A DNA stretch of 56,508 nt from assembly GCA_001938485.1 (NCBI GenBank), contig MQRK01180223.1, positions 12,392 through 68,899 on the forward strand, given 5' to 3'. The notes beneath the pieces are model-generated. The model made no database searches and had not been told where the DNA came from. It worked only from the letters and a program-made list of their open reading frames with translations. Shown in pieces: positions 5,961 through 50,255 of this stretch; within the stretch, counting starts at the first letter, position 1, and each line of letters begins with the position of its first letter. A program made the translations under genes and the position numbers. Source of the DNA: Girardia tigrina. Lineage: Eukaryota.

Positions 5961-6491
5961 TATTAAGAACACCAACATGGGTTTTCGAACTTTTATTTTC
6001 AATACAATCAGAATTGTCTTTTGGACAACTCTCAGCAAAACACTCGTGATTCGACATCGTTCTAAATTGATCAATTTTAGTTAATGTTTGTTAATAAACA
6101 ATTATTCGAACAAATTTTTCATTATTTTCTGATTTTATTTTTAAAGTTCAAATTTTGTAATTTTTATTATTAATTTTATTTACATATTAATTTTATTTAA
6201 AAATTATTTTATGGAAAGAAAGAACATTTATTTAATTCAAAACTTAGTTAAAACTATTTATTTTATTTAAATTTTAATATGAAAATTTGAAACGATTTAA
6301 TATTTTTAATGTTTTTAAATATCTTATGTTGTACTTTAAAATGTAAATTATGCTCGAATAATTATTTATTGTGAACATCTAAAATATCAATTTTCCACCT
6401 GGGTGGGAGAAACACATTTCCAAATACTAAACTCAACATACAAAATTCAACAAACCAATTTCAACATACCAAATTTAAAATATTCCTCACA
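5961..6491 (-). mobile_element. Solo LTR, family A (TGTGAGG...TTAATA)
   Basis: Perfect 5-bp TSD acaat/acaat; conserved ccacctgggtgggagaaacac motif; similar to 9616-10046. Confidence 0.85.
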
Positions 6492-7429
6492 ACAATAATA
6501 CATTTAAATCTCGGAACGGATTTAATTTCACGTATATATTCTATTTCACGTATACGATTCTATCAAAGGATTTGTAACATTATGATTAATTTCAACCTCT
6601 CCTTTCCTTATAACTTGGTTTGAAGTATTTCATTTCATATTTCCACTTCAAAAGCGTTTTGTTCTTCATGTTTTCCATTGCTTTTGTCACATTGACATTT
6701 GTTTCGAAGAATGTCATTTGAAGTGGAGAATTTATTCTGTTTTATTAATGATTTCGTCCGTGTTGTAGAGATAACGTTACCTCTTTAAGCTAGGCGGAGA
6801 TCATTATTACATGTCTTGATCTTTATCCTTAGGTTTTATTAAATTATAATATGAAGATATGAAGGGTAGCATGCCTCATCAATTCTTTCACCATGATCAT
6901 TCCTAACAGGACGGTGAAGCGGTTAGACTTTCTCAAATTTTTACAAACGATTTACGAAAAATAAAGAATTATGCTTTGCTTAGTTTTTTAAATTGTAAAG
7001 ATTTTACGTTTCATTTGAAATCTTTAATCTTTCTTTTTAATTATATATTAATATTAAAGAATATTTTTGAATGGTTTTATTGTATGTTGTTTTTAGGAAT
7101 TGTGTTTTTCCCATCAAGATGGAATATTGAAATTTTAAATGTTTTGGACGGTCGGATTATATTGTACAATTTTAAAATGTTAATAACAACTTACTATATT
7201 TTAATCAATAAATATATAATAATATTTTAATCAAAATAAATTAAATCTATTTGGAAGTGATTAAAAATATTGTAAAAGTGGATTATAAAGTAAGTATTTA
7301 TTTAATCATAAATAATATATTTAAAATGAATTAAAATAGTTTTGAAAATAATTTAAATTTATTTTAGTAAGGAATTTTAATTTAAACTGGTTTGAATAAT
7401 TGAATTAAAATTTTATCAATAAAAAACGA

Positions 7430-8560
7430 TGTATAACTACGAAAGATTTCTGGAGAATTGTCCTGGAAGCAATTTGAGCTGTGATGTCAAAATAAGTATT
7501 GGAAATCATATTAGTGTTCTTAATAAATCAAAAGTTATATTATATTTTCCGCCTATGATATGATTTTTACTGGAAAGTTCAATTTATCATTTATAATAAT
7601 TTGTCTCACGCGGCTGGATCGAACAATGTATATAGAGCTGGAATCTCCAGTTAAAGTAAAGCAAAATATTTTTAAAGATTGTCTTTTGATGTATATTCCA
7701 TTATCGTTCCATTAAACATCATAATAGAAAATTGAGAACTTCTCAAGCAGTAATTTGATTTGATTAACAGTAATTTATATTGTTTTGATTTATTAGTTCG
7801 GTTTAAAATTGAAAAATATTTCTTGTGTTCCAAGGAAGTGAGCATCATTGAAGGACAGAATGTCGATTAAATGATCTGCTCCATGAGATCACATATAATC
7901 ACTAGTATTCGGAGATCTTTGGAGTTCATCATTTGAAAGGTAGATAGGATACAGTATTTTTTTCGATTGAGGTAAACAATCCGGTCATCCAAGAATTTTG
8001 TCAAACCAAAAGAGGCAATTCATTAGAAGCCAATTGATACTTTTCATATAAACTAATAAATTGAATATCAATGCCAGATAAACTATTCTCTTTACAGCAA
8101 TCTATGGCGATATGACCGTTCCTGAGACGATGTACTATTGTGAAGTAGATGAAAAACTTGTAAGCACGATTTTTTGAGTGCAATGAAGGTTCATTTTCGA
8201 GATAATTGTTATTTTATAATTGCTTAATAAATGGATTAGTGAGTTGTTTACCGTTTTAAAATCGCATTATTTGCCAAAATATACCTGTGCTTTGGGAAAG
8301 GTTTTATTTCACTTCATCATATTGTATAAATGATTTATTTGATTCATGTACTTTAAGATTTAGGTATTTAATTTGAGTATCAAAAATTTAGCAAACTCCT
8401 TAATAGTATTAAAGTAGTTCTAAATTGCTTTAATCATCTTAGTTATTAGTATTAGATCATCCACATAACTCAGAATCCTGATTGGAACATTGAAGAAGCA
8501 ATCTCAACTGCAATACAAAGGAATTCATTGTTCATCCTGTATAACATTGAGAGAGTGTAC
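7430..8560 (-). mobile_element. Degenerate non-LTR RT relic (RLE clade)
   Basis: ILSYVDDLILI...LKLN near 8480-8370; ORF 8001-8183 parallels the post-RT7 region of the 23140-23820 fragment; limits approximate. Confidence 0.65.
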
Positions 8561-9422
8561 GATTGCTTAACTCACTTTTTAATGTGAATTCCTTCAATAT
8601 TCAAAATTTTACATTTGATGTTGATTATGTTGTCCTAATATATTTCATTGATATTATTAAGAACACTTTCAGAGAGGCGATTTCATTTTATGTACCTTAG
8701 TTGGAGTTGACGATCAAATCACAGTTTAAAACAATAATGCTTAAATGACAAAACATGTTAACAATAGATGTGAGCAAAATTTTATACAGTAAATTGTGAA
8801 ATTAACCCTATATATAATAGAAGGAAAGGTTACTAATTGATATTCATTGTATGAACTGTAAAATGATAGTAGTTTTAAGCCGCACAATAGTATCATTACA
8901 GCACTCAAGACCGCTGTAAGTCACTTATAATGTTTATTTTTATTTTAAACAAAATGTTGTCCTTGACAATTAAATTCGTTTAAAATTGTATAAATCTTAT
9001 TTAAAAACGTTAAATGAAATTAGAGACGCCTTAAAACGTAGAATGGATTAACTAATACAATTTTATCACCAATTTTAAGGCTTTCTATGTAAATAAAACA
9101 TGTTATTTATATGTTTATTAAATTAAACGTACTATTAAAAATCCCTTTTTAGAATATTTAAATTCTTTGCATCTAAATATTAAATTTACAACAGAAACCG
9201 AGAATAATAACAGATTATCTTTTCTAGATTTACTAATAGAAAGGAAAAAAGATATTTATGAGATCGAAATTTACAGAAAGGAAATTGATAGAGGTTGTAC
9301 ACGACTCCAAAGAGTTTTTGTGAATTTCAATATAAAATTAATATGATTAAAGGTTTAACACATTGACTGCTGTTGACATCATGCACCGAACGTCTGCTAC
9401 AAAAAAAAAGTTTAGCATTTAA

Positions 9423-9558
9423 CACATTGAATGCTGAGTACGAGATATCTCGTACTTAGCGTCTTAGTAATGTAAGCCAAAGTACGAGATATATCGTACT
9501 TAGCGTCTAACTAATGAATATTGAAGTACGAGATATCTCGTACTCAGCATTCAATGTG
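9423..9558. mobile_element. piggyBac-type MITE, 136 bp
   Basis: TTAA on both sides; perfect 34-bp TIR cacattgaatgctgagtacgagatatctcgtact; a related end ttaa|cacattgactgc lies at 9355. Confidence 0.9.
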
Positions 9559-9615
9559 TTAATATTTTGATCTTGGTAATTATCGTCAACTTGTACAAAA
9601 ATTTGTCATTGTATT

Positions 9616-10046
9616 TAATTAGAACAATATTATGATTTTCAACACATTTATCCAGATCAATTCTCCATAAAGCTTTCATACTTAGACATCGTTCTTAATT
9701 GATAAATTTTAATTCTATTTCTAAATCTTTAATTGTTCGAACAAATTTAAATTACAATTTAAATGACCAGAGAATCTTAAATTATTTTCAAAAATATTTT
9801 AATTTATTTTAAATATTTTATTTATGAAATAAATATTTTATTTATTATTTATGATTAAAATATTATTATATGTTTATTATTAATTTAATTTTAAAATTGT
9901 TACTTACATTTTTAAATTGTCCGAATAAACCGATTGTTTAAAACATTTTAAATATCAATCTTCCATCTGGGTGAGAGAAACACAATCCTAAAAACAACAT
10001 ACCAAACACAACGTACAATAAACACCATTCGAAAATATTTCTCACA
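9616..10046 (-). mobile_element. Solo LTR, family A
   Basis: taattagaac...ccatctgggtgagagaaacac...ttctcaca; TSD gtatt/atatt (1 mismatch). Confidence 0.75.
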
Positions 10047-10079
10047 ATATTTATTGTTTTTACCAAATTATTGAATAAC

Positions 10080-14202: not shown

Positions 14203-16606
14203 CAGTGGTTCTCAACCTACTTTCATGTAGCGCCCCCTTTTTATAAATTTTGGAAACGTAAATTTGCCAGTCCCCCTTCTCCCAAAGAAAATTCAAACAA
14301 ATCTTATTTATATTATAAACTTTGAAAATGAAAACAAAGTGATATTTACAATTTGTAAAAATTTATTTTTCATTTTGTAACTTATACAGAACTTTATACA
14401 GCACTTATTGAGAAGCCTGGGTCTGATGTTTTTTGGCAAGGTCATTTATATCTGGCTTCAACTGAGTCAATAAAAGACGAAGATCTCCTCTGTTGATAAT
14501 ATCAAAACGATTCATTACAGTGCTAAAATCATCCTCCACTAGATTCGTTAAGGGAAATGCAAGTTATATCAAATGCATTTGAGACCATAATCTAGGATAC
14601 AGAGTTATCATTCTTGAATGTTGCCATTAATTCCTAAGTCCCCCACAGCTGAAATTTATTTGACACTTTTCATCATTCTGTAATTCTGGCAACTCCTTCT
14701 GAATTTCAATTTCAACATTTGAAATTTTTACCTGAAAAGGATCAGTCATCTAGAATTCAATCTTCATTGCAATAATATCATGAAAGTGAGTTTCCATATC
14801 TTTTTTAATTCCAGTAAATGATTACCAAAGCGTTCAACATCTTTTGGTAATAATTCGATTATTAAAGAAGCAAGTTCAGGAAAATTGTAGAATTACTTTC
14901 TAAGAATGTTTTGACGGAATAAATCAAGATTCTTGGGGAACGTAACAATGATTCGTTTGCAATCAATAGTGTTATCATCTTGCCTTGAAGTTGCAAGTTC
15001 ATTTAATTTAACTTTTAATATAGTCAATCCAGGTAAAGCACATCATTCTTGATTCTCCTCAACTCATTGCAGAAGTCAGAATTATTCTCTTCTTTAAAGA
15101 ATTCCAGAATACTGTCAAACAACTCAATAAAGTGATATAGACAATTTCCTTTATGCAGCAAATTTCCTTTATCAGTATGCAGCAAAAGCTTATTATGTCC
15201 TGCATCATTTTTCCCACAAAATTGATGAAAAATTTGATCACTCTTGGGATGATTTTAGATTTTGTTCACAGCTTTTATGTTTAAGAAATCATGCAACTCT
15301 GAGCTAGGAGTTTTAGCAACAAGATGCTGTCTATGAATCACACAATGAATGGTAAAAATGTCTGAAACTTCCTTTTTTAAATAGGTTATAAAACAGAGAT
15401 AACGGCCAGTCATAGATAGCGCACCATCTGTTGCACAAGCAATTATTTTCATCGAGGGAATATCATTTTTAATGAAAAATCTTTTGACCATATAAAATAC
15501 AGTTTCTCCTTTAGTATCGCAGGTTAGTGTTTCAGCAAACAACAGCTCTTCTTTTAAGCTAAAATCTTCATCAAAATAACTTGCATAGCCAAGAAAAAAG
15601 CAGAGTTGTCTGTTAAAGTTGACTCATCAATCTGTTGTGAAAGTATTTTTGGTTAAAGTTTTTCAAGAAGCTGTTGCTTAACATCATCAGCCATTTCATC
15701 AATACGTCTTTGAACAGTACTATTACTCAATGGTAAAACCTTTAGAACTTCATTTTGATCCTGATGTATCACTTTTAAAATTATTACTTGTAAAGCAGGA
15801 ATGGTTATTTTTTCTGCAACAGTATGTGATGTTCCAGCCCTAGCAATAATTTCTGCAATACTATATGATGCACTCAAACCATCATCTACTTTCCCAATTT
15901 TTCTTTTAAGCATTGAAGAAATCTTTGATTGTTATTGGAATTTCTCATAAAGATTCTTAAATATTCAATTGAATTATCCTTCTTAGCAGCATGTGTAGTA
16001 TGCAAATGTTACTTTAATCGACTAGACTTAATAGCTTCATTGGAAAATAATTTTTGACACAGAAGGCACATTGGTTTCCATTTGTCAATTGATAAATTGT
16101 TAATTGTCTATAAAACCAAATTCCAAATAACTGACTGAATATTGACGGGTTTTCATTTTATTGGATGACATGATTGATGATGTTTATTAGTATACCCTAT
16201 ACAATTAAATGCAATGTAAAAATGATAAATAAAATGCGACAACAGATGAACATTTAAAATCTTTTTTTGGGGTCACCACATTCAAAAAGCAATGTGTATT
16301 GAAAAACGTATCCATTTATTTTCATATATTCATAAATTTAAAACCACATACAATTAGAGAATTGCTTATTCTTCCTGTAGCAATAAAAATGATTTTGACT
16401 ATGCATGGAAAAAGTATGAAAATGATTTAAAAACAATACCATTATCAAGAAAAACCTTATTAACGTGTTAAATAATGAAAATTATTGGTTTTGTTACACT
16501 ATAACTACATTGATGATTGAAAAAATATTCACCGTTTACCAAGGAATCGTGACGATATTTTATACAATATGAGGGGTCGTACATCAAAATAGTTTGTACA
16601 CAGCTG
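14203..16606 (-). mobile_element. hAT transposon, Buster/Charlie (ZBED5/SCAND3-like), disrupted transposase ~14406-16171
   Basis: TIR cagtggttctcaacct at 14203; MSSNKMKTRQYSVSYLEFGF, LPLSNSTVQRRIDEMA, CATDGALSMTG, HCVIHRQHL; the opposite end is degenerate and approximate. Confidence 0.92.
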
Positions 16607-18895
16607 TGGTAGGGGTCAAATTAATAGTCCCCCCTCTAAATGTTTAGGTTTTTTCTGAAATTTTTGCTTGAAGGTTTCAAATCCGAATGTTCATATAAAA
16701 TTTCTTACTTTTACAAAGAAAGATATATAAAAACACAATAACAGAGGTTTATTTATTTATACTTTATTCATTTTGATGCTGATAAATAAATTTAGCTGGC
16801 ATTGTACATTATTATTATCATGACAAATTATGACAATTATTAATGCATAATTTTAAAAATGATAAATTTTTCCAATTAATTGACTGTTCACATAGCAAAT
16901 AAGCACTATATCCACTCCTGGACTGAGCAGAAGAGTGCTGGCCGCTCGGCGTCTACCCTATCTTTCTCTTCTTACATGACCTCTGTTGTTTACTATAGTC
17001 ATCTCCCAAACTTTGAGTGGGAGTTCATTCAGAAGGGCCGCTCTTATACCTTGCCTGTTAGTTGCCGTTTTGGGGAATCTGATATTTGTAGGAGATGCCA
17101 AGAGAATACTGAAACTCTTATGCATGTTCTCTGCTGCTGTCCGACCCTAATGTCATACACTAATGGTTGTCATGACACTGTCGTTGACATTCTGGCCTCC
17201 GAAATTAGGGAACACTGCAATGCCAAACTCGATGTCAATCACCGGTGTCGATTCGTGCACTCTGTACTCAGTGTAGACTTGCAAGTCTACTTCCCTGAAA
17301 AGAGACAAATTGTTCTTATTGACGTCAAGTGTCCCTTCGATAAAAAAGATAACTTGGACCGTGCGAATAATGATAATCTAGAACATTATCGCCATCTAAA
17401 AGAATCCATTCAGGAAAAATTCAGCGATCACAAAGTGTCATTGTTTACATTCATTGTAGGAGCTTTAGGCACCTGGATCTCGGACAACATCAAAGCTCTC
17501 AAGGCGACCTTCATCCCCCACAGAGAGAAAGCCATTGCGTACGCCACCATCAGAAGCAATATCCGATGGAGTGCGCGTCAGTGGATCGCATTCACTGACG
17601 GAAGAGACTCCTCCAACCTGACTAAATTCCGTGACGATCCAGTACACAATCCCAGAGCTCCTGCAACTGAAGGCCCAATTTTCGAAGACACAGACGATGA
17701 AAGCAATGAAATATCTGTCACGGACAGCTTCCAGCATCAACGAAGTGGCGAACGATGAAGCTGAAGAAAAATCCGGCCAACTAAATCATTCCAAGTCCCG
17801 TCTGGGTACAAAAAAACTCTTGTTTTGAAATAAATTTTTAATTAATTTGAAATAAATTAAATTTACAAAATTTTAAAACTTAATTTCTCGTTAAATAAAC
17901 ATTTTATTCATTAAAGAAATATTCTAAATGGTTTCGAAAGGCAAATGAAAATGATAATAATTCTGGTTTACCTCTGAGGGGAATAAGTTCCAGTAACAAT
18001 TATTACGGAGGCTGAAAAGTTGATGATGAAGCCAACTTCTCATTTCCCATTTCTTCTTATTTACGATATCAAAATTAAAATATACCAAAATATAAACCGG
18101 GATCCAAATTTGCATTTAATAAATTGGAAAATATGCAATTAGTTAATTCAGTGAGTCTGAATTCCACAATCTCAACAAATTAAAGGCAGATCTGGCAACA
18201 ACAGAAAACAATATAAAACCAAATAATAAAAGAAATATTAAGTGATTTAATAAAGTGCTCCGACGAGAAAACTCAGCTGAATAAAATATTTTGTTTACAA
18301 ATTAATTAGCAAATTAGGTTCAACGAAATACAGTTTCTTTTGGTCTATTATTAATTAAATAAAATTTAATAATATAAAAGAAAATTAGTTTTTATTGAAA
18401 TATAAAATCTAATTTCTAAAATTTTGTCGAGTAATAAGTTTACATCACTTCTCCGTTTTGGTTATCATGTAATTAGAAAAAATATATAACGTTTCAATTT
18501 AATTTTAATAATTGCATAAATTGTAATAAACAGCTGAACGATCTTTATCTATATTATGCAGAATCAAGACTTACTTACGAAAAACAACATCAGATCAAAG
18601 ATTGAATGGCTTAGCTATAATAAAAACTCACCAAGAATTAATGGATTTCTCAGAGACTGAAAAAGATATAGACACTTTGGCGAAAAACCCAAGGAGACTT
18701 ATGCTTCTGTTTTTATTGTAAAAATGTACGTAATTATATTTCTTATAAAAGTTATTAAATGTGGAATTTTGATTGTATTATAAATTGTATTATTTTAATA
18801 ATAACTAATTGAATTTTTTTTCATTTATAACTCGAATAAGAAAACAAACATTACATAATAGTATATCCCCCCAAATATTTTTCAGTGTGTGAGCC
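16607..18895 (+). mobile_element. ZMYM1-like hAT relic (dimerization domain ~18530-18720) hosting the RLE insertion
   Basis: TAERSLSILCRIKTYLRKTTSDQRLNGLAII...IDTLAKNPRRL; G/C-run subterminal blocks at ~16610 and ~18866; limits approximate. Confidence 0.6.
16905..17835 (+). mobile_element. 5'-truncated RLE-type non-LTR retrotransposon (CCHC zinc knuckle plus restriction-like endonuclease)
   Basis: Open ORF with CRRC..ETLMHVL..C, HD, VDLQV...LIDVKCPF, FIVGALGTW. Confidence 0.92.
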
Positions 18896-18929
18896 TAAAT
18901 ATAGTAAATACACATCCACTTTTTCACCC

Positions 18930-21667: not shown

Positions 21668-21735
<68 letters not shown>

Positions 21736-22732: not shown

Positions 22733-23137
22733 TTAGGTTGTTGCAAAAGGAATGTAGGTTTTTGATTTTTTTTGTATTTACCGCAATGTTATACGACTAA
22801 AGCATGTATGATGTTATGTAATGTATGATTTTATGTGTCATTCGAAAACATAATTTATACTCTTTCAGATATATTTGTCTAAAACTTAATATAATGTTTC
22901 TTTTGTTAATAATTTTGATTTTAATTGCAGATGTCAAAATGTGATTTTCGCAAAATTCACTTCTATGAGTTCAAGCTATGGCGTAATACAGCTCAAACCA
23001 CTGTAAACATCAAAGAAGTTTAGGAAAAGAGAAGTGTCAACGAACGCACGGTGTAGCGCTGGTGTCAAAAGTTTCGCTCTGGTAATACTAGCCTGGAAGG
23101 TGAGCCTCTTGACAGCCGCCCTTCGATTACAAGCCGC
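22733..23137 (+). mobile_element. Mariner 5' fragment (TIR plus N-terminal HTH; ATG at 22931)
   Basis: TA|ttaggttgttgcaaaag TIR; MSKCDFRKIHFYEFKL..NTAQTTVNI...VNERTV*RWCQKFRSGNTSLE...RPS. Confidence 0.88.
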
Positions 23138-23139
23138 CA

Positions 23140-23820
23140 GCTTATTACATTATCAAAACCAACAGATCTGTCTGGTAAAGAGCGTCTAAGTGTGACATTG
23201 GCAGCTTCTGAAATATTTGGGTCAGTGGAGTTTAACATGTAAAAGGAGTGACTGATGGATTGGATTATATATTCATCTATGGCAAAAGTCATTCCAACTC
23301 CTCCATTGGAACGAGACACATAGATGTAGGGTGTTGACGTGTTGTCATGTACTCCTAGTACATCCTTGAAAAATTTCCTAATGTTGATATCCCATCCTGT
23401 AACAGACTCTGTTAACTTACCAAATGGAATGAATGAGTATCTAAAGTTAAAGATAAATTTAGAGTTTTCAAGTAATATGTATGCATGCAGTTTTTGCCAA
23501 GGAAGGAGGAGTGACATGTCTATATAGTTTAAGTCAGCGAGGATGTCAAAGAATAGTTTCTCAGGTGTGTATGTGACAATCCGGCCTATAAAGGATCCTA
23601 AGTACATGTATCCTTCGTCGACTTCAAGATGTGGTATGTCTGCATGGTAGATTGTTATGTGTGTGTTCTTGTATGGGATATCGAGAATGGCACACTTAGA
23701 AACTCTAAAAGACATACCAATAGCGTTGACTGCATTAAAGGCTATATCAACAACATTTTTTAATTTATCAGGTGATTCAGAAAAAAGACCAAATCATCAT
23801 CATAAGCCATACAAGAAATT
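23140..23820 (-). mobile_element. RT fragment of an RLE-clade non-LTR element (domains 5-7 and thumb)
   Basis: AYDDDLVF (YADD-like, then frameshift), GMSFRVSKC, YMYLG, LLPWQKL, YVSRSNGGVGM. Confidence 0.9.
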
Positions 23821-30954: not shown

Positions 30955-32300
30955 ATACAAGTTTTTGCGTAAATTTATATATCACGCTGCTACAAAATTT
31001 TTTTACGAAATTAAATAGTTTTTTACAAATTAATTTTAAAATTAGATGCTATATAAATGTAAAAAATAGTTTTATTGTGTTTAGAATATTTTTTTTAAAA
31101 AACATAATAATAAATATTTTTAAAATTTTATAAGTTGATTGCATCTTATTTAAATGAAATGAATTAATTTTATAGGTAATAAAATTTTTAAAAATATTCT
31201 AAAAATATTAAAAAAAAGTTTTTAATTAAAAAGAAAAGTTCAAAAATATATTATTGAATATAATAAATTATTTTTAAAGCTTAAAATGTTTTTTACAAAT
31301 TGAAAGTAAAATGAAATTTATGAGGCGAGTTGAAAATTTTAATTAACGGAAATTTGTTTGAAAATTGGGAGTTGTCATAGTAATAAATTTTGGTGTTAAA
31401 ATGAATTCTGATATTGATGTTGCAACCACTTCTCACATGGCGACTAAGGCTGCAATGGATATTTTCACGGGCTAACTGTTACCTGAAAAGTACAGGAAAG
31501 GCGATAATGTGGAGATATTTATTTGAAGAATGTGAAACATTCTTTAATTTTGCAGGAATAGCGAAGGCCAAACAAAAGACAATAGTCGTTTGTTTGTTGG
31601 ACAGAGATCTAAAAGAACGATACAAAGCGGTAGATAAGGCAATAGTAGGTTATGAAGACCGATTGAGAAAGGCATTCTTTCGAAACATGACTTGTCAAAA
31701 GACGCCCTCACGGAAGCATTATTGTTACATTGTTGTGATGATGTGGACATAAAAAAGGAAGTGAGACTTAACAAAGTGAAAGGAATAGATGAGATAAAAG
31801 AAAAGAAAAAGGCCGTACAGGACGTCAAAAGTGACAGAAGATGTGAACGTAATAAGAGACCAGAGGATGCCGGAGTTAGAGGAGCAGTAACAGGATACAG
31901 TAAAAACGGACAAAATCAGACAGGTTGGTAGAAATACTACAGAATACGTTCAAGGTAGGAAAGCGGTCAAATGTGGTAATTGTGAAAAAGTAGGTCACAC
32001 AAGTGAAACGTGTAGACAAAGAAAACCAATCAAGTGTTTCGGATGTTGAAAAGAAGGGCACATGATAAGAAATTGTTCGGAAAGGAGACCAATAAAATGT
32101 TATGGTTGTGGACAACAGGGACACATAAGAAGAAACTGTCCAAACATCGAATGGAAAAGATGTCAAGATAAAGGCCACAGTGAATGTTATACAAACCTAA
32201 ATGGCAGAAGACGACAGCAAAATACAAGTGAAAATAACTATCGAGGATCGGGCTACAATCAACAAAGATATAGAGAGAGTGAGAAGACAGAAGACTAAGA
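30955..32300 (+). mobile_element. LTR retrotransposon family B: 5' LTR (ends 31437), PBS TGGCGAC, disrupted gag 31455-32298
   Basis: ttctcaCA|TGGCGACT; CCHC knuckles CGNCEKVGHTSETC, CFGC*KEGHMIRNC, CYGCGQQGHIRRNC plus a degenerate fourth. Confidence 0.9.
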
Positions 32301-34900: not shown

Positions 34901-35988
34901 AGTAAAAATATGAAATAAATTTATTTTAATCCAACGATTTATTGGTAAAATATATTCTAATTATCGTACAGTTTCTTATAATTTGTTAGTTTAATACATA
35001 ATGTAGATTGATCTGATGATCGCAGTGTTATTACGAAACGCTTTAAATTCTTTTCATCTCTTTTATATAGATTATACTTATTTATATGTATATATATAGT
35101 TCTCATAGTGAAAAGAAATTAAAAACTTTTGTCATGATGAATTGAACGGAAACCGTGCCTCCACATTAATTTTGGGACGTCCGATTGTCTCAAATAACAA
35201 CGAAGGCATAATTGCTATTGTTATTAATATCACTTTTCGATCGAAAAACACGAGTGTGATTAAATTGATCGATTGAATTGGCTCAAGGAAATTTTTATCA
35301 TCCTAATTATGTCAGTAGATGAGATCCAGAAGAATGTTATTTATCGTCGATAAAATCGAATTGTCGTTTTTAAATTCACTAACGATATTTGAAACTTTTG
35401 TTGGATTTAATTTAAACGTTTTATCATAAGGATTTGTTAAACTGTCGATTGATGAAACAAAATTCGTTAAATTTGGTGAAAGTACTTTTTCATGTCTCAT
35501 TAAATTTATCGAAAATGAAAATCAACCCGCAAACTTTTATTTTACATTGAAATTACACCTTTTTTGAAACTGACAAAATAAAGTAAACAAAATTCATTAA
35601 ATTACTTCATTAAAACAATCATTTTGAATATCTGGTGATATCTATTCAGCGAATTCAAAAATTCAACATCACATACATGATAGTCAAATTTACAATTCAA
35701 AATTTTCCAAATTCACAAATCAATGATATAAAATCATTTTTCGCTGATATTCAACAGAATCGATAATAACGAAAATGGTTTTAATGAAATAAAAGAAACC
35801 TTAATTATTTTATTCGTTTATTGTTATTATGATTATTATTAATTTTTTTAATTACTTATCTTATTTAATTCTTTTTTTATTTAATTAATTATTTTTAATT
35901 ATTTATTGATCTTACTTTTTGAATTTTATTTTACTTTAATTAATTATTTAATTAGTTATTTTGATTATATATTGTTAATTTAATATAT

Positions 35989-37648: not shown

Positions 37649-38079
37649 TGTGAGGGGTAATTTGGAATGATGTAAGTTTTTTGATTGTATGCTGTTTAGA
37701 TTTGTGACTCTCCTACTCAGATTGGATTGATATGTTTATTGATTGATTATTTGCATCTAATGATATTAATTTTAAGTACTAATTAATTAAAGTTTTATAA
37801 TTATGAACTTTAATAATATTTTTAGTAAACGATTTTAACTTATTAGATTTAATATATTTTAAAAATTAATGTTCATTTAATAAATTACTTAATGCCTTTT
37901 TATCCAATAAAATTTAAGAAATTAAAAATTAATATTAAAAATTTCCCATTCATTGTTTTTTAGATTTGAATATATAAACAAAAACTATATCAATCAAAGA
38001 AAGATACTCTCTGAAAATTGTTGTGAAGAATCTATTTGTGTTGTCAATAAATGTTTGCATTCAAATTGTGTTGTTAATA
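37649..38079 (+). mobile_element. Solo LTR, family A
   Basis: ataag|TGTGAGGG...gttgTTAATA|ataag, perfect 5-bp TSD; internal ctctcctactcagattgg motif. Confidence 0.88.
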
Positions 38080-39180: not shown

Positions 39181-40127
39181 CGAAATGCATATTTAAATAA
39201 CATTCTGACTGAAATTGCTTGGTACTTTGTTAGGAATTATAAAACTTGAGCTCTAACTGTTAGCAATTGTTTCAATGAGTTCAAGTGGTTCTTCCTCAAT
39301 TGATTGCTTTGACTTTTTCGAAAAAAAACCTCGATTTTACGATACTCCGATGTACGCTTCTTCATTTGAAAATTCCGCAAAACAAAAGAATTTTAATTAA
39401 TACTAAATTAAAACACCGCTTTCAATCACTTATTTTATTACGCTGATAAACACAAGTTTTGTTTCCTGCTTGAAATTGCTTGTTTCAAGCTAATTTAAAT
39501 GCGCTAATCACGAATCTGAATTTCATTTTTGTCGAGGACCTCTAGTTTATTATTTATACGTCAGTGGAGGCTGTGGTTAGGAATAGATGGTGCCACTCAA
39601 GGTTCATACATTGTTACTATAAATTATTTGAGTGTACTATAAATGCAAAAATGTCAATGTAGAACTAAATAACATTTTTATTACTCAAAACTATATCATT
39701 AATCAGTTCAAAATTCTAGAGTTTTGTGTTTAGTTGAATTGGAGTTTTCTAGAAAATCCCTATGTTCTATTTCTAGTATAATTGAGTATTATAGACAAGT
39801 TAGAAGATGCCAGTTTTATGTCTTTTTAAAGCAATACTTAAAATATATTTTCTCAAAACTATCACCATATTTAAATTCAGCATGGTCGAAAACCTTTGGT
39901 GGTTAAGAACATTTTAAAATAAATGCTTTTCTAAAAATTCTTTATCAAAAGTAAAATATTTGCTATTAAAAGATTTACACATATTCTCAAAATTGCTCTG
40001 TAGCCTACCGTCAAATCTATATATTTTGCAAAATCTAGAATTTTCTGTGTTATATTTTTAGTAAAATTTGGTATATAAATTTGCTAGCAAAGCCAAGACA
40101 TTTCATTTTTCGTATCAAATTTACAAC

Positions 40128-40810
40128 ATGCCGAGACATTTCAAGCGACCACCCGACTCTTTCTGTTACATTTGCGGTGAATTTATTTTAAAAGGAAGAG
40201 AGAAATACATTACACCTCTCATAAAAAAGGCTTACGAGCAGTATTTTCATATCAAGATTAATGATAAATACAAGGATTTGGCTCTTCGTAAGTGCTGCGC
40301 AAATTGTGCTGTAACGCTTTGGGGATTGCTAAGTGGCAATCAAAAATCCATGCCCATTTGCAATCCCATTGGTGTGGCAAGAGCCGACAGATCTTGTCTC
40401 CAACTGCTACTTTTGTATCACATATGTTTCTGGCATAAACCCAAAAAAAACAAGAAGATCGAGTATCCTAACCTGCCATCTGCAATACGTCCTGTGCTTC
40501 ATAGCGATGAACTTCCCGTACCTGTTCCTCCTGATGTTGATACTTTTGGAAATGAGGATGCATCACCGGATAGGTGCAGTAGCGGTGAGGATCCTAGGGC
40601 TGATACGGAGTATGTTCCTAATTGCTCAATAGGTTCACATCTCATTACACAGGAAGAACTCAATGATTTGAGTCGAGACTTCAACCTCTCCATGACATAC
40701 TCAGAGTTGTTAGACTCACGCTTGCAGCAATGGAACCTTCTTACCTCTGGAACCAAGATTTCCATGTACAGAGAACGTCACCGCAGTTTATCTTCCCTGT
40801 TCGATAAGAA
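40128..40810 (+). mobile_element. Probable Chapaev3 (CMC superfamily) transposase N-terminal half, frameshifted and truncated
   Basis: PDSFCYICGEF...KKAYEQYF...CCANC...PFAIPLVWQEP....CYFC...YPNLPSAIRPV.H...LITQEELNDL.RD; family assignment from memory. Confidence 0.7.
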
Positions 40811-41019
40811 AATAATAGTGGATTCGTAATCAACAAGTGTGATTTAGTGAGAAAAAGGTTTTTCATAAAAGAAACGGACAAAATGTTTAAATTTGTTGAT
40901 TAGTGTTATTAAACAAAATTAATAATTAAATCATAAATAAAATGCTTTAAAAATACGAATTTTATGACAAAAGATAACATTTTAGCAATGCACACATAGA
41001 CTAAAAAAGATTTTTTTGA

Positions 41020-41941: not shown

Positions 41942-42805
41942 TGTAAAATACATTAAAAAATTAAAGTTTTTGCGTAAATTTATATATCAAGCTGTTACAA
42001 AATTTTTTTACGAAATTAAATAGTTTTCAACAAATTAATTTTAAAATTAGATGTTATATAAATGTAAAAAATTAGTTTTATTGTGTTTAGAATATTTTTT
42101 AAAAAAATACATAATAATAAATATTTTTAAATTTTTATAAGTTGATTGCATCTTATTTAAATAAAATAAATTAATTTTATAGGTAATAAAATTTTTAAAA
42201 GCATTCTAAAAATAATAAAAAAAGTTTTAATTAAAAAGAAAAGTTCAAAAATATGTTATCGAATATAATAAATTATTTTTAAAGTTTTTACACATTCATT
42301 GGATTTTATTTAATGAAATAAATTAATTTTACTTGTCATATAATTTTTATAAATTTATTTTAAAAAATAATAAAAATTTGATATAGTAAAAAGTCAAAAA
42401 TAAGTTATAGAATATAATAAATTATTTTAAAAGTTTAAAATGTTTTTAAAAATTGAAAGTAAAATAAAATTTATGTGGCGAGTTAAAAATTTTATTAAAC
42501 GGAAATTTGTTTGAAAATTGGGAGTTTTCATAGTAATAAATTTTTGTGTTAAAATGAATTCTGATATTGATGTTGCAACCACTTCTCACATGGCGACTAA
42601 CGTTGCAATGGATATTTTCACGGGCTAACTGTTATCTAAAAAGTACAGGAAAGGTGACAATGTGGAGATATTTATTGAAGAATGTGAACATTCCTTAATT
42701 TTGCAGGAATAGCGAAGGCTAAACAAGAGACAATAGTCATTTGTTTATTGGAGAGATTATTATTATTTATCTGAAAGATCGATACAAAGTGGTAGATAAG
42801 ACATT
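41942..42805 (+). mobile_element. Family B second copy: 5' LTR (ends 42590), PBS, truncated gag start
   Basis: High identity to 30955-31640; carries an extra ~150-bp tandem duplication. Confidence 0.9.
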
Positions 42806-42880
42806 GCTATAATGTTGAAATGTGCAATGATGAATTGCTGTAATGATGAAATGTCTCGTATGATGAGGTGTCAGGCAACC
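42806..42880. mobile_element. Orphan MULE-like terminus with short subrepeats
   Basis: Repeated (a)atgatgaa(a)tg units ending in gtgtcaggcaacc; truncates the gag. Confidence 0.45.
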
Positions 42881-43369
42881 GTTTTTTGTATACCTATTCA
42901 AATCTTAAAATTAATTAATTAGACTAGTTTAGTATTAACTTTTAATTTCTCAAAATTTTACTGGATAAAAATGTATTAAGTAATTTTTAAAATAAACAGT
43001 AGTTTTTCAAATATATTAAATTCAATAAATTAAAATCGTTTACTAAAAATATTATTAAAATTTATAATTATTAAACTTTTAATTAATTTGTACCTAAAAA
43101 TTAATCTCATTAAATTAATTTCATTAGATATAAATAATTAATCAATAACATATCAATCCCATCTGAGTAACAATTCCATCATCAGGTTAATCCACAACAT
43201 GTACTTAACTAGCACACTATACAGAACTATAAAATAATTTAAAAACATTTTAAAAATAAATTATTGGAGTGACATGAATTTATTTCATTTTTCCTAAAAC
43301 TTAAGCGAAAATACACTGAAGGGGCTAAATTCTATTCTTGTAAACTAACCATTGTCAGCTATTGGTTAC

Positions 43370-43783
43370 TATTAAGAGCACCAATATGACTTTTAACATA
43401 TTTATTATTACAACAATTTTGATTGTCCTCAGGACGATCTTTGTTACAGCTTTCGTAAGATTACATCAGTCTATTAATTAATGACTTTAATCTTATTATC
43501 TAAGCAAATGGAGAATTAAATAAATTATTAAATAAATTAAATTATTATAAATTATTTTTTTGGATAAAAAATTAAAATGATTATTAATTATTTAAAAATT
43601 ATAAATTTAATTTATTTATTTAAATATTGTAAAAAAATTAATAAACTTATTTAAAATTTTACAATTATTTTAAGTTAGAAATAAACTTAAGCATTACATA
43701 TTTTCAGATAATAAGAATTAAAATATTAATCATCCATCTGGGTAGGAGAGACACAATTCTAAATCAACAAAATATTCCTCACA
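43370..43783 (-). mobile_element. Solo LTR, family A (partial copies also at ~28495-28519 and ~43090-43170)
   Basis: tattaagagcac...ccatctgggtaggagagacac...cctcaca; TSD gttac/attac. Confidence 0.82.
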
Positions 43784-45450
43784 ATTACATTTGAGAAAAC
43801 GATATGTTTAGATTATCGTTCCGTACTTAACATGGTAATGGAGCCATATTGCTAGTCATTTCAATGAGGATTTGACTCTGCAGAACAATCGGTACTCAAA
43901 AACTTGTGATCTGACCACGAGAATAATAGTTTAAAAATTGTCTCTCGATAAGTTATCAATTTCACTTTTAAATTTAATTATTATGAATTTTCTTATTTAT
44001 TGAAGTCTTTTTTTACTATTTAATTAAATTTAACTTTTTTATTAATTTAATTATAATGCAAGTGATACGACAATAAATATTTTAGCGATTTTTATTCACT
44101 ATAACACGAAAAATGGTGATTTGAATCGCCTTTGGGCAAGGAGAGAGAGAGGATATTATAAATAAAGATAACAATGAATAATTTATAATTTAAATTCCGT
44201 AACAATTAAACCTTTATCATATTTTTATATTGAAAAATATTATCAATGGCCTTAAATTAGTTGCCGCCCAATATATTTTCTTTCACTTACGGAAATTCTT
44301 AAATCAGTGATTTTAGGATTTTTATTTTCAGGACTGCATCGAAAGTAAATGATGCGATCAACCGGGAGCGCCTTTCACGAGAGTCTCCCTTAATACCTGT
44401 GACTAGACGACGATAAACTGCAAGGTGGTATGTAGCTTTAACGACTGAGCAACTCGCTCATTTCCGGAGTTTAGCAATATTTGATATGTAAAGATCTTTT
44501 AAGATTTGATATCTTTCTGTAAAGCGTTTACATCATTGAAAAAATCATTTTCTTTGCGAAAAATGCAACAAGATGCACTAAAATAAAATAAAAAATTGAG
44601 TATGATTGTACGGCTTTCTTTCTTCTCTCTTTATTTTCGCCATGGAGAAATCGTTTAGTCAAAATTTTTTTGTTCGACAAAAAATAATATAAAATATAAT
44701 ATATTTAAATATTTATTTTATTACTAAGTGGATTTTAGATTATCTAAAAGATTCGAACGAAAAGAGTTTTGAAATTCGTTGATTGTATTTGTTATTTTAA
44801 CATTTCCAGACGATTTTTTTGTTTAATATTGATAATTTTTTATGAAACTAATTTTACAGATAAATATCAGATATAATTTAAATGATTCTTTAGGTTCCTT
44901 TTCATTTGCAAATGGCATTTATTAATTATCAATTACCTGCACATCAGCGTCTTATTGTTGCCCTCCATACATCTTCCGTTGGAACATTTGATTTCCTTGC
45001 ACAACGCTGAAAGAAGGATTCTGTTAATATTATATCAAACAATTTTTACTGATAATTTATAAATTATGATAAAACTCCTTCGATAAATTTTATTTTTACT
45101 TGGATTTAATCTTTTAGTGAGGTTAATTTCAATAAGTTTTCAGGTGAATTCTGACTCCATAAATATTGATAATAATTTTAATAATTATAATTCATTATTT
45201 TATAAGTATCAGTATTTTATAAATAAAATAAATATCAATTATGTTATTCTGCTTTTATTTATATATTTTATTTATGAAATAAAAATTGATGTTATATTAG
45301 TGCTACTAACAACATCAATATGAGTTTTTAAACTTTTATTAATATCACAAGCGCATTCACTATTTGACATTTTTCTCGATCAATATATTTTTGAATTCAT
45401 ACTAATTATTTTCAATAAATGAAAATCTTTTTATAAAAATTATTATTAAC

Positions 45451-46697
45451 ATGGCATGAAAGTTTTTCCCGTTACTCTCCACTTCTAAATAAGAAAGGAA
45501 ATTACCATTCTAATGCTATTTTTTTGTTAATTCATGTTTATAAATATTTTTTGGCAAAAAAATTAATCGATATATATATATTAATTTGTGTCATATGATC
45601 ACTTCTCATATTGGATTTAAAAGGTTGTCGGTAAAAATGGAGTTTTCAAAATCTAACAGTCTATTCTATGCATACGTTGAGTGGAAAATGGAACGACTGC
45701 AGCTGAAACCTATAGAAAGTTGTTCAATGCACTCCCTGATGATTACCCAACGGAACACACAATAAAAAACTGGTTCTCTGATTTTACCTCAGGCAAGCGG
45801 CTATCGTTGGACGATCACCCACGAAGTGGACGTCCTTCAGCAACAACAACTGATGATTTGATTGAAAAAGTTAGGAACATAATTGAGCAGGGTGAAAGAA
45901 GGTCTTTAAGACACATAAGTGAAATGCTTGATGTCAAAAAAGAATCAATAAGGACAATCCTCCATGGAAATTTGAACAGGAAAAAGATTTTAAGAATCTG
46001 GGTGCCTTATCAACTGATTGATGATCACAAACGACAATGTATTGAATCCTCAAGAAATTTTCTTGAAACTTGTGCAACAATATGGGAAAGAATACTTGAT
46101 GAAACGATGGATAACAGTTGATGAAACGTGGATATCATTTTCCCCTACATTGTGGAGATCCGACTTACGAGTATAGGCAAGTGGAGATAATCCTCGACCA
46201 AGTGCTGTTCAAAACAAAAAATTTGGACGAAGAACAATGCTTATTTTGGCATTCACAGCTGATGGTAATTTTCACATCAAAGTAACAAAATCTGGTGAGG
46301 CTATCAATTCTGAAAGATATACAGAATTAATTCAAAATAGTCTTACGAAGTTTAGTAAAGACAGACGACGAGTGAATACGCGAGAAATTCTTTGCAGCAT
46401 GATAATGCTCGACCACATTTATCCAAGTTTACCACGGAGTTTTTTCAGAAAAAACATGTTGAATTGATTAAACAAGCTCTATATTTGCCTGATTTAAATC
46501 AGTGTGACAAATGGCTATTCAAATTTTTAAAAAGATTATTAAGAACAACATCGTTTGCAAGTGAAGAAGAGTTCTTACAAGTAGTTAGTGATTTTATGAG
46601 GAATCTCTCACGAGAAAAACTTTCACATGAATTTGATAAACTTTTTACACGTGCTGAAAATGTTATTTGTTGTAATGGTGAATATACTGTTGTGTAG

Positions 46698-46741
<44 letters not shown>

Positions 46742-46875
46742 NNNNNNNNNNNNNNNNNNNNNNNNNNNNNNNNNNNNNNNNNNNNNNNNNNATATATATA
46801 TATATGTTGTTTTATATTTGTTTTATTTAGAAATTAGAAAAACAGAGGAGTAACGGAAAAAAACACTTTTGCAAT
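45451..46875 (+). mobile_element. Mariner (DD34D-type), near full length, frameshifted transposase 45637-46697
   Basis: HTH, RSGRP, WVPYQL, TVDETW, QHDNARPH, YLPDLNQCD; imperfect TIRs sharing ccgttactc preceded by a T run. Confidence 0.95.
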
Positions 46876-46953
46876 ATTAATAATTATAAAGAATCTAATT
46901 GGTTAAAATTAAATCTAAACATTTTTTAAAAAAGTACATATTAAATTAATAAA

Positions 46954-47874
46954 CAGGTATCCCTCCTATAACACGGTCGATATGTTCCAAAAATATGACG
47001 TTATGTGAAACCGTGCTATAGGAGACCAGATGCTGGTACAAAATGTGGGGTTAAGTTCCAAAAAAACATTTAAATGCCACGGAATGAACATTAATTCTAT
47101 TAAAGATAAAAAATAAATAAAAATTCAATTAATTATTCAAAAAAACAAATATAAACCCACGTAAATGCATAAAAAACAAACAAAAATAGGCTGAAATATC
47201 CGTGAAAATTTTTTTTATTGTTTTTCATTGTCGCTGCTCAATTCCATTAAATGCGAATGTTTTTTCAACCGAATACTATCATCTGTACCTTCTGAACTTA
47301 CATTGCTATTTTTTTCGCTCGTTGATACCTTAAAAAAATCCGTAATTTTGCCTTGTTTCCTTGTCCGTTCAAGGTTGTTGTAAATTTCTTGATACGGCGA
47401 TAGACAATTTTGTAGTTCTCTTTTGAATTTTCGGCTTCTTTCAGNNNNNNNNNNNNNNNNNNNNNNNNNNNNNNNNNNNNNNNNNNNNNNNNNNNNNNCT
47501 TCCTGTAATTTTTTTAGTGTCAAAATATTAACTTCATTATATTCATCAGAGCTAGAATCGATTTCATTTATTTGGGGTTCGGATGCCATTTCCACCAAAT
47601 CTGCTTCTCCAATTTCTTGTTCTACTTATAAGTCTTGTATGTCTTCGATGGCCATATCCACAAAACCCTCTCCTCCGACAAACCTAGCGCATTCTAAAAT
47701 GGCACCAATTTCTTTTTCCCCTGATTCGTGCGCGCTTCCTAGTACAACTGCTGCTGGCCATATCTTTTCAATTCCACAAAATATTGCGTTTTCTATTTTA
47801 CAGGTTTTCAGAAAAAAAAATCGTGTTAGAGTGAAATCGTGTTGCAGGATACCGTGTTGTAGGAGGGATACCTG
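46954..47874 (-). mobile_element. Internally deleted Tigger/pogo element
   Basis: 23-bp TIR caggtatccctccta(t/c)aacacgg; C-terminus IWP...GGEGFVDM...ERSRKF...YQEIY...KQGKITDFFK. Confidence 0.9.
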
Positions 47875-48689
47875 TATTAAAATTTTAAATTACATTAAAA
47901 ATTAAATAATACATTCAAAAATTATTTTAAATCTTTTTACTTTAAAATTAAATTAAATTATTTTTAATTAGTAAGAATCAAAGAAAATATCAATCATCCA
48001 TCTGGGTAGGAAAGACACAATCCGAATCAACATACAACATGTACAATATCAACACACAATTCAAAACATTCCTCACGCTTCTAGGTGCTTTGGCAACAGG
48101 TGCTTTGACCATAGGGGGTTTGACAATAGGGGGTTTGACCATAGGTGGTTTGTCCACAACGGGGGTTTGACCACAGGGGGTTTGACCATAGTTGATATAT
48201 ATATATATATATATNNNNNNNNNNNNNNNNNNNNNNNNNNNNNNNNNNNNNNNNNNNNNNNNNNNNNNNNNNNNNNNNNNNNNNNNNNNNNNNNNNNNNN
48301 NNNNNNNNNNNNNNNNNNNNNNNNNNNNNNNNNNNNNNNNNNNNNNNNNNNNNNNNNNNNNNNNNNNNNNNNNNNNNNNNNNNNNNNNNNNNNNNNNNNN
48401 NNNNNNNNNNNNNNNNNNNNNNNNNNNNNNNNNNNNNNNNNNNNNNNNNNNNNNNNNNNNNNNNNNNNNNNNNNNNNNNNNNNNNNNNNNNNNNNNNNNN
48501 NNNNNNNNNNNNNNNNNNNNNNNNNNNNNNNNNNNNNNNNNNNNNNNNNNNNNNNNNNNNNNNNNNNNNNNNNNNNNNNNNNNNNNNNNNNNNNNNNNNN
48601 NNNNNNNNNNNNNNNNNNNNNNNNNNNNNNNNNNNNNNNNNNNNNNNNNNNNNNNNNNNNNNNNNNNNNNNNNNNNNNNNNNNNNNNNN

Positions 48690-48914
48690 ATAAATTTTGA
48701 AAATAAAGTTTAAATAATTTTTGAAATAAATTTTTGAAATAAATTTTCAGGATTTTAAAAATTAAATCGAAAAGAATTTAATAGATTAATTTGGGTCGAG
48801 ATAATTAACTTAAATTAACAGGAAAATTTGTTTTAAAGATGTGAATTGTTATATAAATAAATTTTGGTGTTAAAAAAATTAATTCTGATATTGAGGTTGC
48901 AACCACTTCTCACA
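48690..48914 (+). mobile_element. Family B-related LTR (start lies in the gap), no PBS
   Basis: aattctgatattgaggttgcaaccacttctcaca end. Confidence 0.8.
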
Positions 48915-49124
48915 ATTTCTATACTTAAAATTTTTAATTAAAATATTTTTGCCATTATTACCCAATAATACTTTAATAAAATAAAATATATTAAAAAATT
49001 CTATTTAAACTTAATATACATTTTAAAATCATATTATTAATAACAACTAAAATATTAGATTCTAGCCCACACATGCCAAAATCATGGAGAACTATACAAA
49101 TATTAAAATGCTAAATTTCCAAAT

Positions 49125-49166
49125 ATTGCTGATGATGATGTATGTAATCATCGAAACATGTCCAAT
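49125..49166 (+). ncRNA. Minimal hammerhead ribozyme, third copy of the family
   Basis: tattg-CTGATGA-t-gatg-tatgtaat-catc-GAAA-catg-TC-caata. Confidence 0.85.
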
Positions 49167-49321
49167 AAATATATAAAAGAAGCTTTAATCAAATTATATT
49201 TTAAAAATATTAAAAACTGTGGACAAACCACCTATGGTCAAACCCCCTATGGTCAAACCCCCGCTGTGGACAAAACCCCTATGGTCAAAGCATCTGTGGT
49301 CAAAGCACCGCGTACCTTCCT

Positions 49322-50255
49322 CACGTCCCCCTCGGTTTAAATGGCTTTAGCCATTCAACATTTCTAATCAAAGTTATACCATCTTCGAGCTGTAACTCGT
49401 ATCTGCTTTCGTGATTTCTTTTCAGCACAATTGCCGGACCCATGTAACGGTCATCTTCTTTTGATACATTTTATTTTTTTATCAAAACTCTGTCTCCAAC
49501 TTCAAAAACTCTTCTTGTCTCTAAATTTTGTTCGACATTAACTTGGTTTCCGTTAGTTTCTTTATTGTTCTTCCACCAATGTCTTAATCGTCTCCCAAAT
49601 ATTATTTCAGCAGTTGAAACACCTGTTGTAGCCTGAACTGTACTATTCAACATAAATTCTATTTCCGACAAAACTTTTGTCCAATCTCTGTGGTCTCCGT
49701 CCTTCAGTCTAATATTTATAGCATCTCTGATTATTCGAAATCGTCTTTCCACACTCCCATTTGAATTATGATGATATGGACTTGAATAGATTATCTCGAC
49801 TTTGAACCTTTTAACTGTATCTTTGAACAAAATCGATTCACATGTTTTTCCTCTATCATCATGGATTTCTTTTTGAGGTCCAAATTTCCATATCCTTCTG
49901 TGCAATATTACTCTACGAACTGTTTTTTTTATCTTGACTAGTAACTGCATTCAGGCTAATATATCTACTGAATTGCTCTACTATTGATATCCGATTATGT
50001 TTCTTTTGAATGGTCCACAGAAGTCCATGTATATTTTCTGGATAGATTCATCTGCCGACGACTATATATGCTTTTCTTTCGTTTTCGCTGTTAATGTCAT
50101 TCTTTTTTGACAATTTAAACAACTTTGGACTATTTCTTTAATGAAATTTCTCATATTTAAATTTCTCATATGTAAAAATCTTCTCGAAGATATTTAGACT
50201 TTTTTTACTACCAGCATGGCATAATAGTTTGTGTATTTCTTCAATAAAATCTGTT
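49322..50255 (-). mobile_element. Gypsy integrase (HHCC, core, GPY-like module) with PPT gaggggga at 49326-49333
   Basis: IHKLLCHAG, CLNCQK, MDFCGPF, SPYHHNSNGSVERRF, RYMGP...RNVEWLKPFKPRGT*. Confidence 0.93.

What the first reader, a model, noticed from the sequence alone, without database searches (positions are those of the whole stretch)
5961..49333. Gypsy LTR family with non-canonical TG...TA termini and 5-bp TSDs
Seen: four solo elements (5961-6491, 9616-10046, 37649-38079, 43370-43783; 414-531 bp) start TGTGAG and end in TA (TTAATA in three, TAATTA in one). Their 5-bp flanks are acaat/acaat, gtatt/atatt, ataag/ataag and gttac/attac. Removing the MULE at 48078-49316 puts a fifth copy directly after the integrase C-terminus and PPT gaggggga, which fixes the orientation and links the repeat to Gypsy. 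Known: LTR integrases normally use CA-3' at both ends and non-canonical ends are uncommon. Inference: this integrase uses TA-3' at the U5 end. Because the interiors are quite diverged while TA is kept, it looks like a stable family trait that TG...CA-based LTR finders would miss.
Basis: partly seen in the sequence, partly recalled or inferred. Interest (0 to 1): 0.7.

Follow-up and report, generated by a model that had tools for sequence, protein, structure and literature searches.

The report
Gypsy retrotransposons with mirror-image TA ends
This is a jumping-gene family with thousands of copies whose right-hand end reads TA instead of the usual CA, while a sister family in the same genome has the change at the left-hand end, so their inserting enzyme likely accepts either letter at one end at a time.

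Summary
Confirmed. The four solos are real LTRs with 5-bp TSDs, and the fifth is the 3' LTR of a Gypsy remnant split by three DNA transposons. TA is the true U5 end. In 8 of 8 two-LTR elements the 5' LTR ends AATA directly on a tRNA-Arg(ACG) PBS. 19 of 25 young solos have a perfect 5-bp TSD at exactly that boundary. Genome-wide the junction reads TA 1,163 times and CA 10 times. The trait is not unique to this family: sister families are TG…CA, one with about 9,300 starts is the mirror image TA…CA, and U5-TA needs at least four changes on the Pol tree. The terminal A also begins the gag reading frame. Best reading: the clade's integrase likely needs the terminal A and tolerates C or T before it. 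TG…TA ends are already in print (CsRn1-clade Gypsy; plant Copia), so this is a new variant of a known kind.

The parts
5961..6491 (-). Solo LTR A, TG...TA, perfect 5-bp TSD (5956-5960 / 6492-6496)
   Evidence: 94.6% like the LTR of L146, which abuts a tRNA-Arg PBS
7058..7525 (+). Sixth LTR copy, start eroded (left edge approximate), U5 end TTAATA
9616..10046 (-). Solo LTR B, TG...TA (TAATTA), TSD with one mismatch
   Evidence: older subfamily, genome hits 76-82% identical
37649..38079 (+). Solo LTR C, TG...TA, perfect 5-bp TSD
   Evidence: 86-87% like 3' LTRs of L190, L193, L198
43370..43783 (-). Solo LTR D, TG...TA, TSD with one mismatch
45304..45445 (-). U5 piece of the fifth copy (3' LTR positions about 276-419), ends TTAGTA
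45446..46872 (.). Insertion holding a mariner-like transposase remnant (ORFs 45681-46121, 46359-46697) and a TA repeat; splits the 3' LTR (edges approximate)
   Evidence: family name from recalled motifs, not searched
46873..46951 (-). Middle piece of the fifth copy (LTR positions about 204-285)
46952..47874 (.). Insertion with terminal inverted repeats and TA flanks (pogo/Tc1-like, name recalled); splits the 3' LTR
47875..48077 (-). U3-side piece of the fifth copy (LTR positions about 1-203), 95-96.5% like the young subfamily
48078..49316 (.). Insertion with long inverted ends and 9-bp duplication (48069-48077 / 49317-49325), MULE-like
49317..49325 (-). First 9 bases of the 3' LTR (reads CG, not TG, at the start)
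49326..49333 (-). Polypurine tract abutting the 3' LTR
   Evidence: same tract before the 3' LTR in most integrase-anchored loci
49334..50262 (-). Broken integrase region of the Gypsy element, truncated upstream
   Evidence: 91.5% nucleotide identity to L138; 150 of 150 scored genome hits at 80-89% protein identity besides itself
31338..31447 (+). U5 end (CA) plus PBS of the mirror-image TA...CA sister family
42305..42600 (+). U5 end (CA) plus PBS of the mirror-image TA...CA sister family
48690..48914 (+). U5 part of a mirror-family LTR inside the MULE-like insertion
53729..53935 (+). U5 part of a mirror-family LTR (ends CT)

Best explanation
These are LTRs of a high-copy Ty3/Gypsy retrotransposon lineage whose U5 end is TA and whose U3 end is the usual TG, and its integrase likely needs the terminal A but tolerates either C or T before it. 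Shown: about 4.1-4.5 kb internal region with gag (CCHC) and a separate PR-RT-RH-IN pol, no env, 410-530 bp LTRs, a tRNA-Arg(ACG) primer site and a polypurine tract that both touch the LTR with no spacer, and 5-bp target duplications that begin right after the TA. Inferred: both cDNA ends are joined by the element's own integrase, one as CA-3' and one as TA-3'. The C-to-T change likely arises often in this 26% GC genome, is not purged, and has reached fixation in several lineages, at U5 here and at U3 in a sister family. The terminal A is likely held twice, as the attacking base and as the A of the gag start codon (A|TG), which leaves the base before it the freer one.
For: Boundary: 29 of 29 complete young LTRs end TTAATA; 19 of 25 rows classed as solo (18 distinct sites) have a perfect 5-bp TSD at that boundary and 0 of 25 at any other offset from -3 to +3. 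Two-LTR elements: 8 of 40 fetched loci held both LTRs; 8 of 8 end AATA on both, 8 of 8 5' LTRs touch TGGCG, 5 of 8 have perfect TSDs; LTR pairs 95.8-99.3% identical (7 measured). Samples anchored away from the terminal bases: U5, 4,834 matches against 6 control, first 100 listed give 91 TA, 2 CA, 7 other; U3, 4,574 matches, 92 TG, 5 TA, 3 TT; junction 1,163 TA against 10 CA. Primer: PBS complementary to tRNA-Arg(ACG) for 10-18 bases, and five loci carry 37-39 bases of the CCA-bearing tRNA directly after an LTR-like end, while the tRNA genes lack CCA. Tolerance: among the first 100 of 4,924 PBS junctions, 30 TA, 31 CA, 22 AC, 17 other; mirror family 9,320 TA starts against 258 control, U5 CA in 90 of 100, perfect TSDs at 3 solos and 1 two-LTR element; L214 and L237 carry TA on both LTRs with a perfect TSD inside or beside CA families; at least 4 changes, single TA clade rejected, p-AU 1e-5. 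Gag frame: the junction ATG opens at least 100 codons in 14 of 41 junctions, the other two frames in 0 and 3.
Against: No biochemistry: tolerance is read from inserted copies only. Within the focal clade every scored subfamily keeps TA over 74-99% Pol identity with no reversion, which also fits a preference for TA. The extra origins rest on single elements (L192 read from one LTR only), and LTR swapping between families could inflate the count of changes. The integrase loop before the catalytic Glu is the same in TA and CA families, so no TA-specific protein change was found; the outer clade keeps the Gln of that loop yet has quite different ends, so that residue alone does not predict the ends. 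Ty1 integrase, which also has spacer-less ends, needs CA in vitro (PMC8487063, passages; TA was not among the substrates in those passages). Use of the junction ATG as the start codon is untested.
Confidence: 0.7

Rival explanations
1. The focal lineage's integrase has specialised on TA at U5 (co-evolved preference), and the other TA cases are separate specialisations or accidents.
For: TA is fixed across several subfamilies and CA junctions are under 1%.
Against: The same enzyme must join a CA end at U3 (92 of 100 TG); the catalytic loop does not differ between TA and CA families; TA turns up at the opposite end in a sister family.
Confidence: 0.2
2. TA at U5 is kept by selection on gag translation (the base sits at -1 of the junction AUG) or on RNA structure at the primer site, and integrase merely puts up with it at a cost.
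For: The junction ATG opens the gag frame; pol also runs into the LTR, its stop at LTR position 3 in 28 of 40 loci, so both ends carry coding roles.
Against: CA families use the same junction ATG with C at -1 (11 of 14 CA junctions open at least 30 codons); the mirror family's U3 TA cannot be explained this way.
Confidence: 0.07
3. The elements inserted with CA and decayed to TA afterwards (CpA to TpA mutation), or the boundary is misplaced.
For: The genome is 26% GC and 5 of 100 U3 starts have decayed to TA.
Against: Decay gives a few per cent, not 91 of 100; both LTRs carry TA in 8 of 8 elements; TSDs fit only this boundary.
Confidence: 0.02

Closest known systems
CsRn1 clade of Ty3/Gypsy (PwRn1 of Paragonimus, AgCR elements of Anopheles; PMC2582038, passages)
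   Same: Animal Gypsy elements reported with ends changed to TGT...ATA or TGT...AAA; the terminal A is kept.
   Different: They have 4-bp TSDs, a tRNA-Trp PBS and a CHCC Gag; this lineage has 5-bp TSDs, tRNA-Arg and CCHC. No mirror TA...CA family is mentioned in the passages seen.
Non-TGCA plant LTR elements (TGTA, TACA; LTR_retriever 10.1101/137141, passages; sacred lotus PMC9804982, passages)
   Same: Same single-base end variants side by side in one genome, not monophyletic, short LTRs; single changes commoner than double.
   Different: Mostly Copia (89%); lotus has 941 TGTA and 548 TACA copies, against thousands per subfamily here in an AT-rich, apparently animal Gypsy lineage.
Yeast Ty1 (PMC8487063, passages)
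   Same: LTR ends need no 3' processing there; here PBS and PPT likewise touch the LTR.
   Different: Copia order; all 60 Ty1 LTRs end CA and CA is the minimal need in vitro.
Drosophila 412/mdg1 clade
   Same: Two ORFs (PMC5408687, passages); tRNA-Arg priming next to the LTR is recalled, from no call.
   Different: TG...CA ends and 4-bp TSDs (PMC3276498 Table 3, passages).
Errantiviruses (gypsy, ZAM, Idefix; AGT...AnT ends; PMC5408687, PMC3601003 Table 3)
   Same: Show that Gypsy integrases can leave TG...CA; the outer clade found here has AGT...ACT-like ends.
   Different: The focal family keeps TG at U3, has no env and makes 5-bp TSDs.

Membership tests
Ty3/Gypsy LTR retrotransposon | Pol order PR-RT-RH-IN | tested here: met
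   Pfam RVT_1, RT_RNaseH, Integrase_H2C2, rve in that order; protease domains in close homologues; best solved match Ty3 Gag-Pol, E 1e-100
Ty3/Gypsy LTR retrotransposon | Two direct LTRs, tRNA PBS, PPT, 4-6 bp TSD | tested here: met
Ty3/Gypsy LTR retrotransposon | Gag upstream of pol | tested here: met
   ORF with CCHC knuckle in L138; atlas hits to Retrotrans_gag / Ty3_capsid / zf-CCHC clusters at 0.92-0.95; no Pfam hit for the N-terminal 237 aa
Canonical LTR ends | 5'-TG...CA-3' | tested here: not met
   TG...TA
CsRn1 clade | tRNA-Trp PBS | tested here: not met
   tRNA-Arg(ACG) against PMC2582038
CsRn1 clade | 4-bp TSD | tested here: not met
   5 bp
CsRn1 clade | CHCC Gag signature | tested here: not met
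   CCHC
412/mdg1 clade | 4-bp TSD | tested here: not met
   5 bp here; 4 bp for 412 and mdg1
412/mdg1 clade | Grouping with 412/mdg1 in an RT tree | not testable with these tools
   No named clade references could be fetched; of the 120 listed homologues only two carry an element name, an automatic one
Errantivirus | env ORF and AGT...AnT ends | tested here: not met
   pol runs into the 3' LTR, no room for env; ends TG...TA

The most novel reading that the evidence does not exclude
This clade's integrase follows a 'terminal YA, but at least one CA end' rule. Two mirror-image families (TG...TA and TA...CA), each with thousands of copies, have expanded in one genome, while no expanded TA...TA family was seen. 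The ends double as translation signals (gag AUG across the U5/PBS junction, pol stop at LTR position 3), and an outer clade with the same primer has moved on to AGT...ACT ends. The lineage would be a natural series for how retroelement integrases lose the CA rule.
Probability: 0.3. Interest if true: 0.7.

Novelty: new variant of a known kind. Interest (0 to 1): 0.5.

Why it matters
The terminal CA is treated as near-invariant for retroviral-type integrases. Here thousands of concerted insertions carry TA on one end, and the same genome holds the mirror case and canonical sisters with the same primer and TSD length. That is a matched natural set for asking what integrase reads at the end and whether one good end is enough. 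In practice, strict TGCA settings would drop intact copies of two of the larger Gypsy families of this genome.

Tried and rejected
Post-insertion decay and a misplaced boundary: rejected. A single origin of U5-TA: rejected (23 rows: 21 of the 25 tree rows with a readable U5 end, four near-duplicate mirror-family rows left out, plus two outgroups; quick tree, SH-aLRT only; a full IQ-TREE run on 81 rows timed out, and FastTree gave the same picture). A TA-specific integrase change: none in the loop before the catalytic Glu. That loop has His and mostly Asn where foamy virus has Pro214 and Gln215; the matching Gln of RSV stacks on the G opposite the penultimate C (PMC7955051, passages), but CA families share the change, so it is at most permissive. 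Host taxon: a Med23-like host ORF found one unnamed homologue; runs that hold the family are sediment, aquatic, leaf-litter and wastewater metagenomes and coded organisms; the host stays undetermined and no reads were laid. First motif script found 3 rows because of a pattern error (redone). Literature: ten searches found no description of this lineage; Repbase and most subscription journals are not covered, one genome paper was not held, and supplements were not read (PMC2582038 Additional file 1 and LTR_retriever Table S2 bear on which elements have TA ends). PMC3532108, PMC3587641 and PMC4202319 (passages) held nothing on TA ends; PMC5659011 seen as a search listing only.
Full report
Setting. 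The window is 26% GC and lies in G000, a 1.43-Gb assembly in 255,254 contigs. The host taxon was not established.

Observation. The four solos are as described; three are on the minus strand. They are homologous far above shuffles and their flanks match as 5-bp duplications, two perfectly and two with one mismatch (chance 0.0026 and 0.033 each). The fifth copy follows a broken integrase region (49334-50262) and the purine tract at 49326-49333. It starts CG, is cut by three insertions, and its pieces cover a whole LTR ending TTAGTA at 45304. A sixth, truncated copy ends TTAATA at 7525.

Is TA the real end? Yes, by four tests. First, 40 integrase-anchored loci were fetched; 8 held both LTRs. All 8 5' LTRs end AATA and touch TGGCG, all 8 3' LTRs end AATA, and 5 of 8 have a perfect 5-bp TSD. 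Second, among the 30 best hits to one young LTR, 29 of 29 complete ends read TTAATA; 19 of 25 rows classed as solo have a perfect 5-bp TSD at that boundary and none at another offset (the 25 include one truncated row, one probable decayed 5' LTR and one duplicate site). Third, patterns anchored inside the LTR leave the terminal bases free: 4,834 U5 matches, of the first 100 listed 91 end TA and 2 CA; 4,574 U3 matches, 92 TG, 5 TA, 3 TT; I counted these lists by hand. Fourth, the family's U5-PBS junction reads TA 1,163 times and CA 10 times. In the older subfamily of copy B, 14 of 18 de-duplicated rows end TA at the scripted boundary and none CA; two rows were mis-anchored, one was off by a base and one ends AA.

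Anatomy. L138, a metagenome record of the same family, shows gag with a CCHC knuckle, an overlapping pol in another frame and no env. Pfam gives RT, RNase H, H2C2 and rve in Gypsy order; the best solved relative is Ty3. The PBS is complementary to tRNA-Arg(ACG). Five loci (L131, L133-L135, L146) carry 37-39 bases of the CCA-bearing tRNA straight after an LTR-like end; the genomic tRNA genes lack CCA. L146's LTR is 94.6% like window copy A. So the primer is the mature tRNA and there is no spacer. The last A of the LTR and the TG of the PBS form an ATG that opens the gag frame: at least 100 codons in 14 of 41 junctions, against 0 and 3 in the other frames. At the other end pol runs through the purine tract and stops at LTR position 3 in 28 of 40 loci.

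The wider clade. The same PBS occurs 4,924 times against 266 control; the first 100 junctions split 30 TA, 31 CA, 22 AC, 17 other. Sister families at 45-65% Pol identity mostly end CA, in G000 and in three metagenome records. One family is the mirror image: TA after the purine tract, CA before the PBS, 9,320 starts against 258 control, CA in 90 of 100 U5 ends, with 5-bp TSDs. Four of its U5 ends lie in this window. L214 and L237 have TA on both LTRs and a perfect TSD; both U5 copies come from one template (established retroelement replication), so they inserted with TA. On a Pol tree U5-TA needs at least 4 changes and one TA clade is rejected (p-AU 1e-5). An outer clade at about 40% identity, with the same PBS, has AGT...ACT-like ends and mostly 5-bp TSDs.

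Mechanism. Shown: ends, TSDs, primer, coding overlap, spread of end types. Inferred: the element's own integrase joins one CA-3' and one TA-3' end; the clade needs the terminal A and tolerates C or T before it; mutation towards A+T supplies the change and it has been fixed more than once (0.7). A lineage-specific preference for TA remains possible (0.2), since no subfamily of the focal clade has gone back to CA. The catalytic loop differs from foamy virus at Pro214 and Gln215, and the RSV equivalent of that Gln stacks on the G paired with the penultimate C (PMC7955051, passages). CA families share the change and the outer clade keeps Gln, so it is a lead only. No expanded TA...TA family was seen; TA at the second end stays at 5 of 100 and 2 of 100, about the level of decay. 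This hints at a need for one CA end but was not tested by a full census.

Known cases. TGT...ATA ends are described for CsRn1-clade Gypsy elements (PMC2582038, passages), but those have 4-bp TSDs, tRNA-Trp and CHCC Gag, so this is not CsRn1. TGTA and TACA ends are known in plants, mostly Copia, and also arise repeatedly there. The general LTR consensus keeps CA for most animal Gypsy clades (PMC3601003 Table 3, passages). Placement in a named Gypsy clade could not be tested. Ten paper searches found no account of this lineage, but Repbase is not covered. Earlier scan notes held no record of this sequence; one note on a TT...AA family elsewhere pointed to PMC3601003.

Verdict. Real, and well supported. 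A new variant of a known kind; interest 0.5, raised by the mirror family and the coding role of the ends, lowered by precedent.

Noticed in passing
window 31338-31447, 42305-42600, 48690-48914, 53729-53935; L202-L212: Mirror-image sister Gypsy family with TA...CA ends, about 9,300 U3 starts in G000, 5-bp TSDs.
   Followed up: yes
L273-L292, L172-L180: Outer Gypsy clade (about 40% Pol identity) with very short LTRs (about 100-130 bp), AGT...ACT-like ends overlapping the same tRNA-Arg PBS by one base, and mostly 5-bp TSDs; errantivirus-type ends without evidence of env.
   Followed up: partly
L138:247-1299 and 41 junctions: The gag frame opens with an ATG made of the LTR's last A and the PBS's TG, so the primer site is protein-coding in both TA and CA families.
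   Followed up: partly
40 loci: Pol reads through the purine tract; its stop codon is at LTR position 3 in 28 of 40.
   Followed up: partly
L131, L133, L134, L135, L146 (37-39 bases); L132 (whole tRNA): LTR-like ends followed by a copy of mature tRNA-Arg that mostly stops just before the anticodon: likely read-through of the primer to a modified base.
   Followed up: partly
L102-L129: Weak palindromic target preference: purine first in 15 of 18 distinct TSDs, T last in 9 of 18.
   Followed up: no
window 16880-17758 (+) and 23065-23793 (-): Remnants resembling a non-LTR element with a restriction-like endonuclease and RT (names recalled, not searched).
   Followed up: no
window 15255-15623 (-), 27701-28078 (-), 40065-40829 (-): Transposase-like remnants (not searched).
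   Followed up: no
window 42883-43292 (-) and 34906-35030 (+): Further degraded sequence like copy C (80.6% over 288 bases) and a related fragment; ends not examined.
   Followed up: no
L082:4062-6314 (-): A 751-codon uninterrupted host ORF matching Mediator subunit Med23 near one element.
   Followed up: partly
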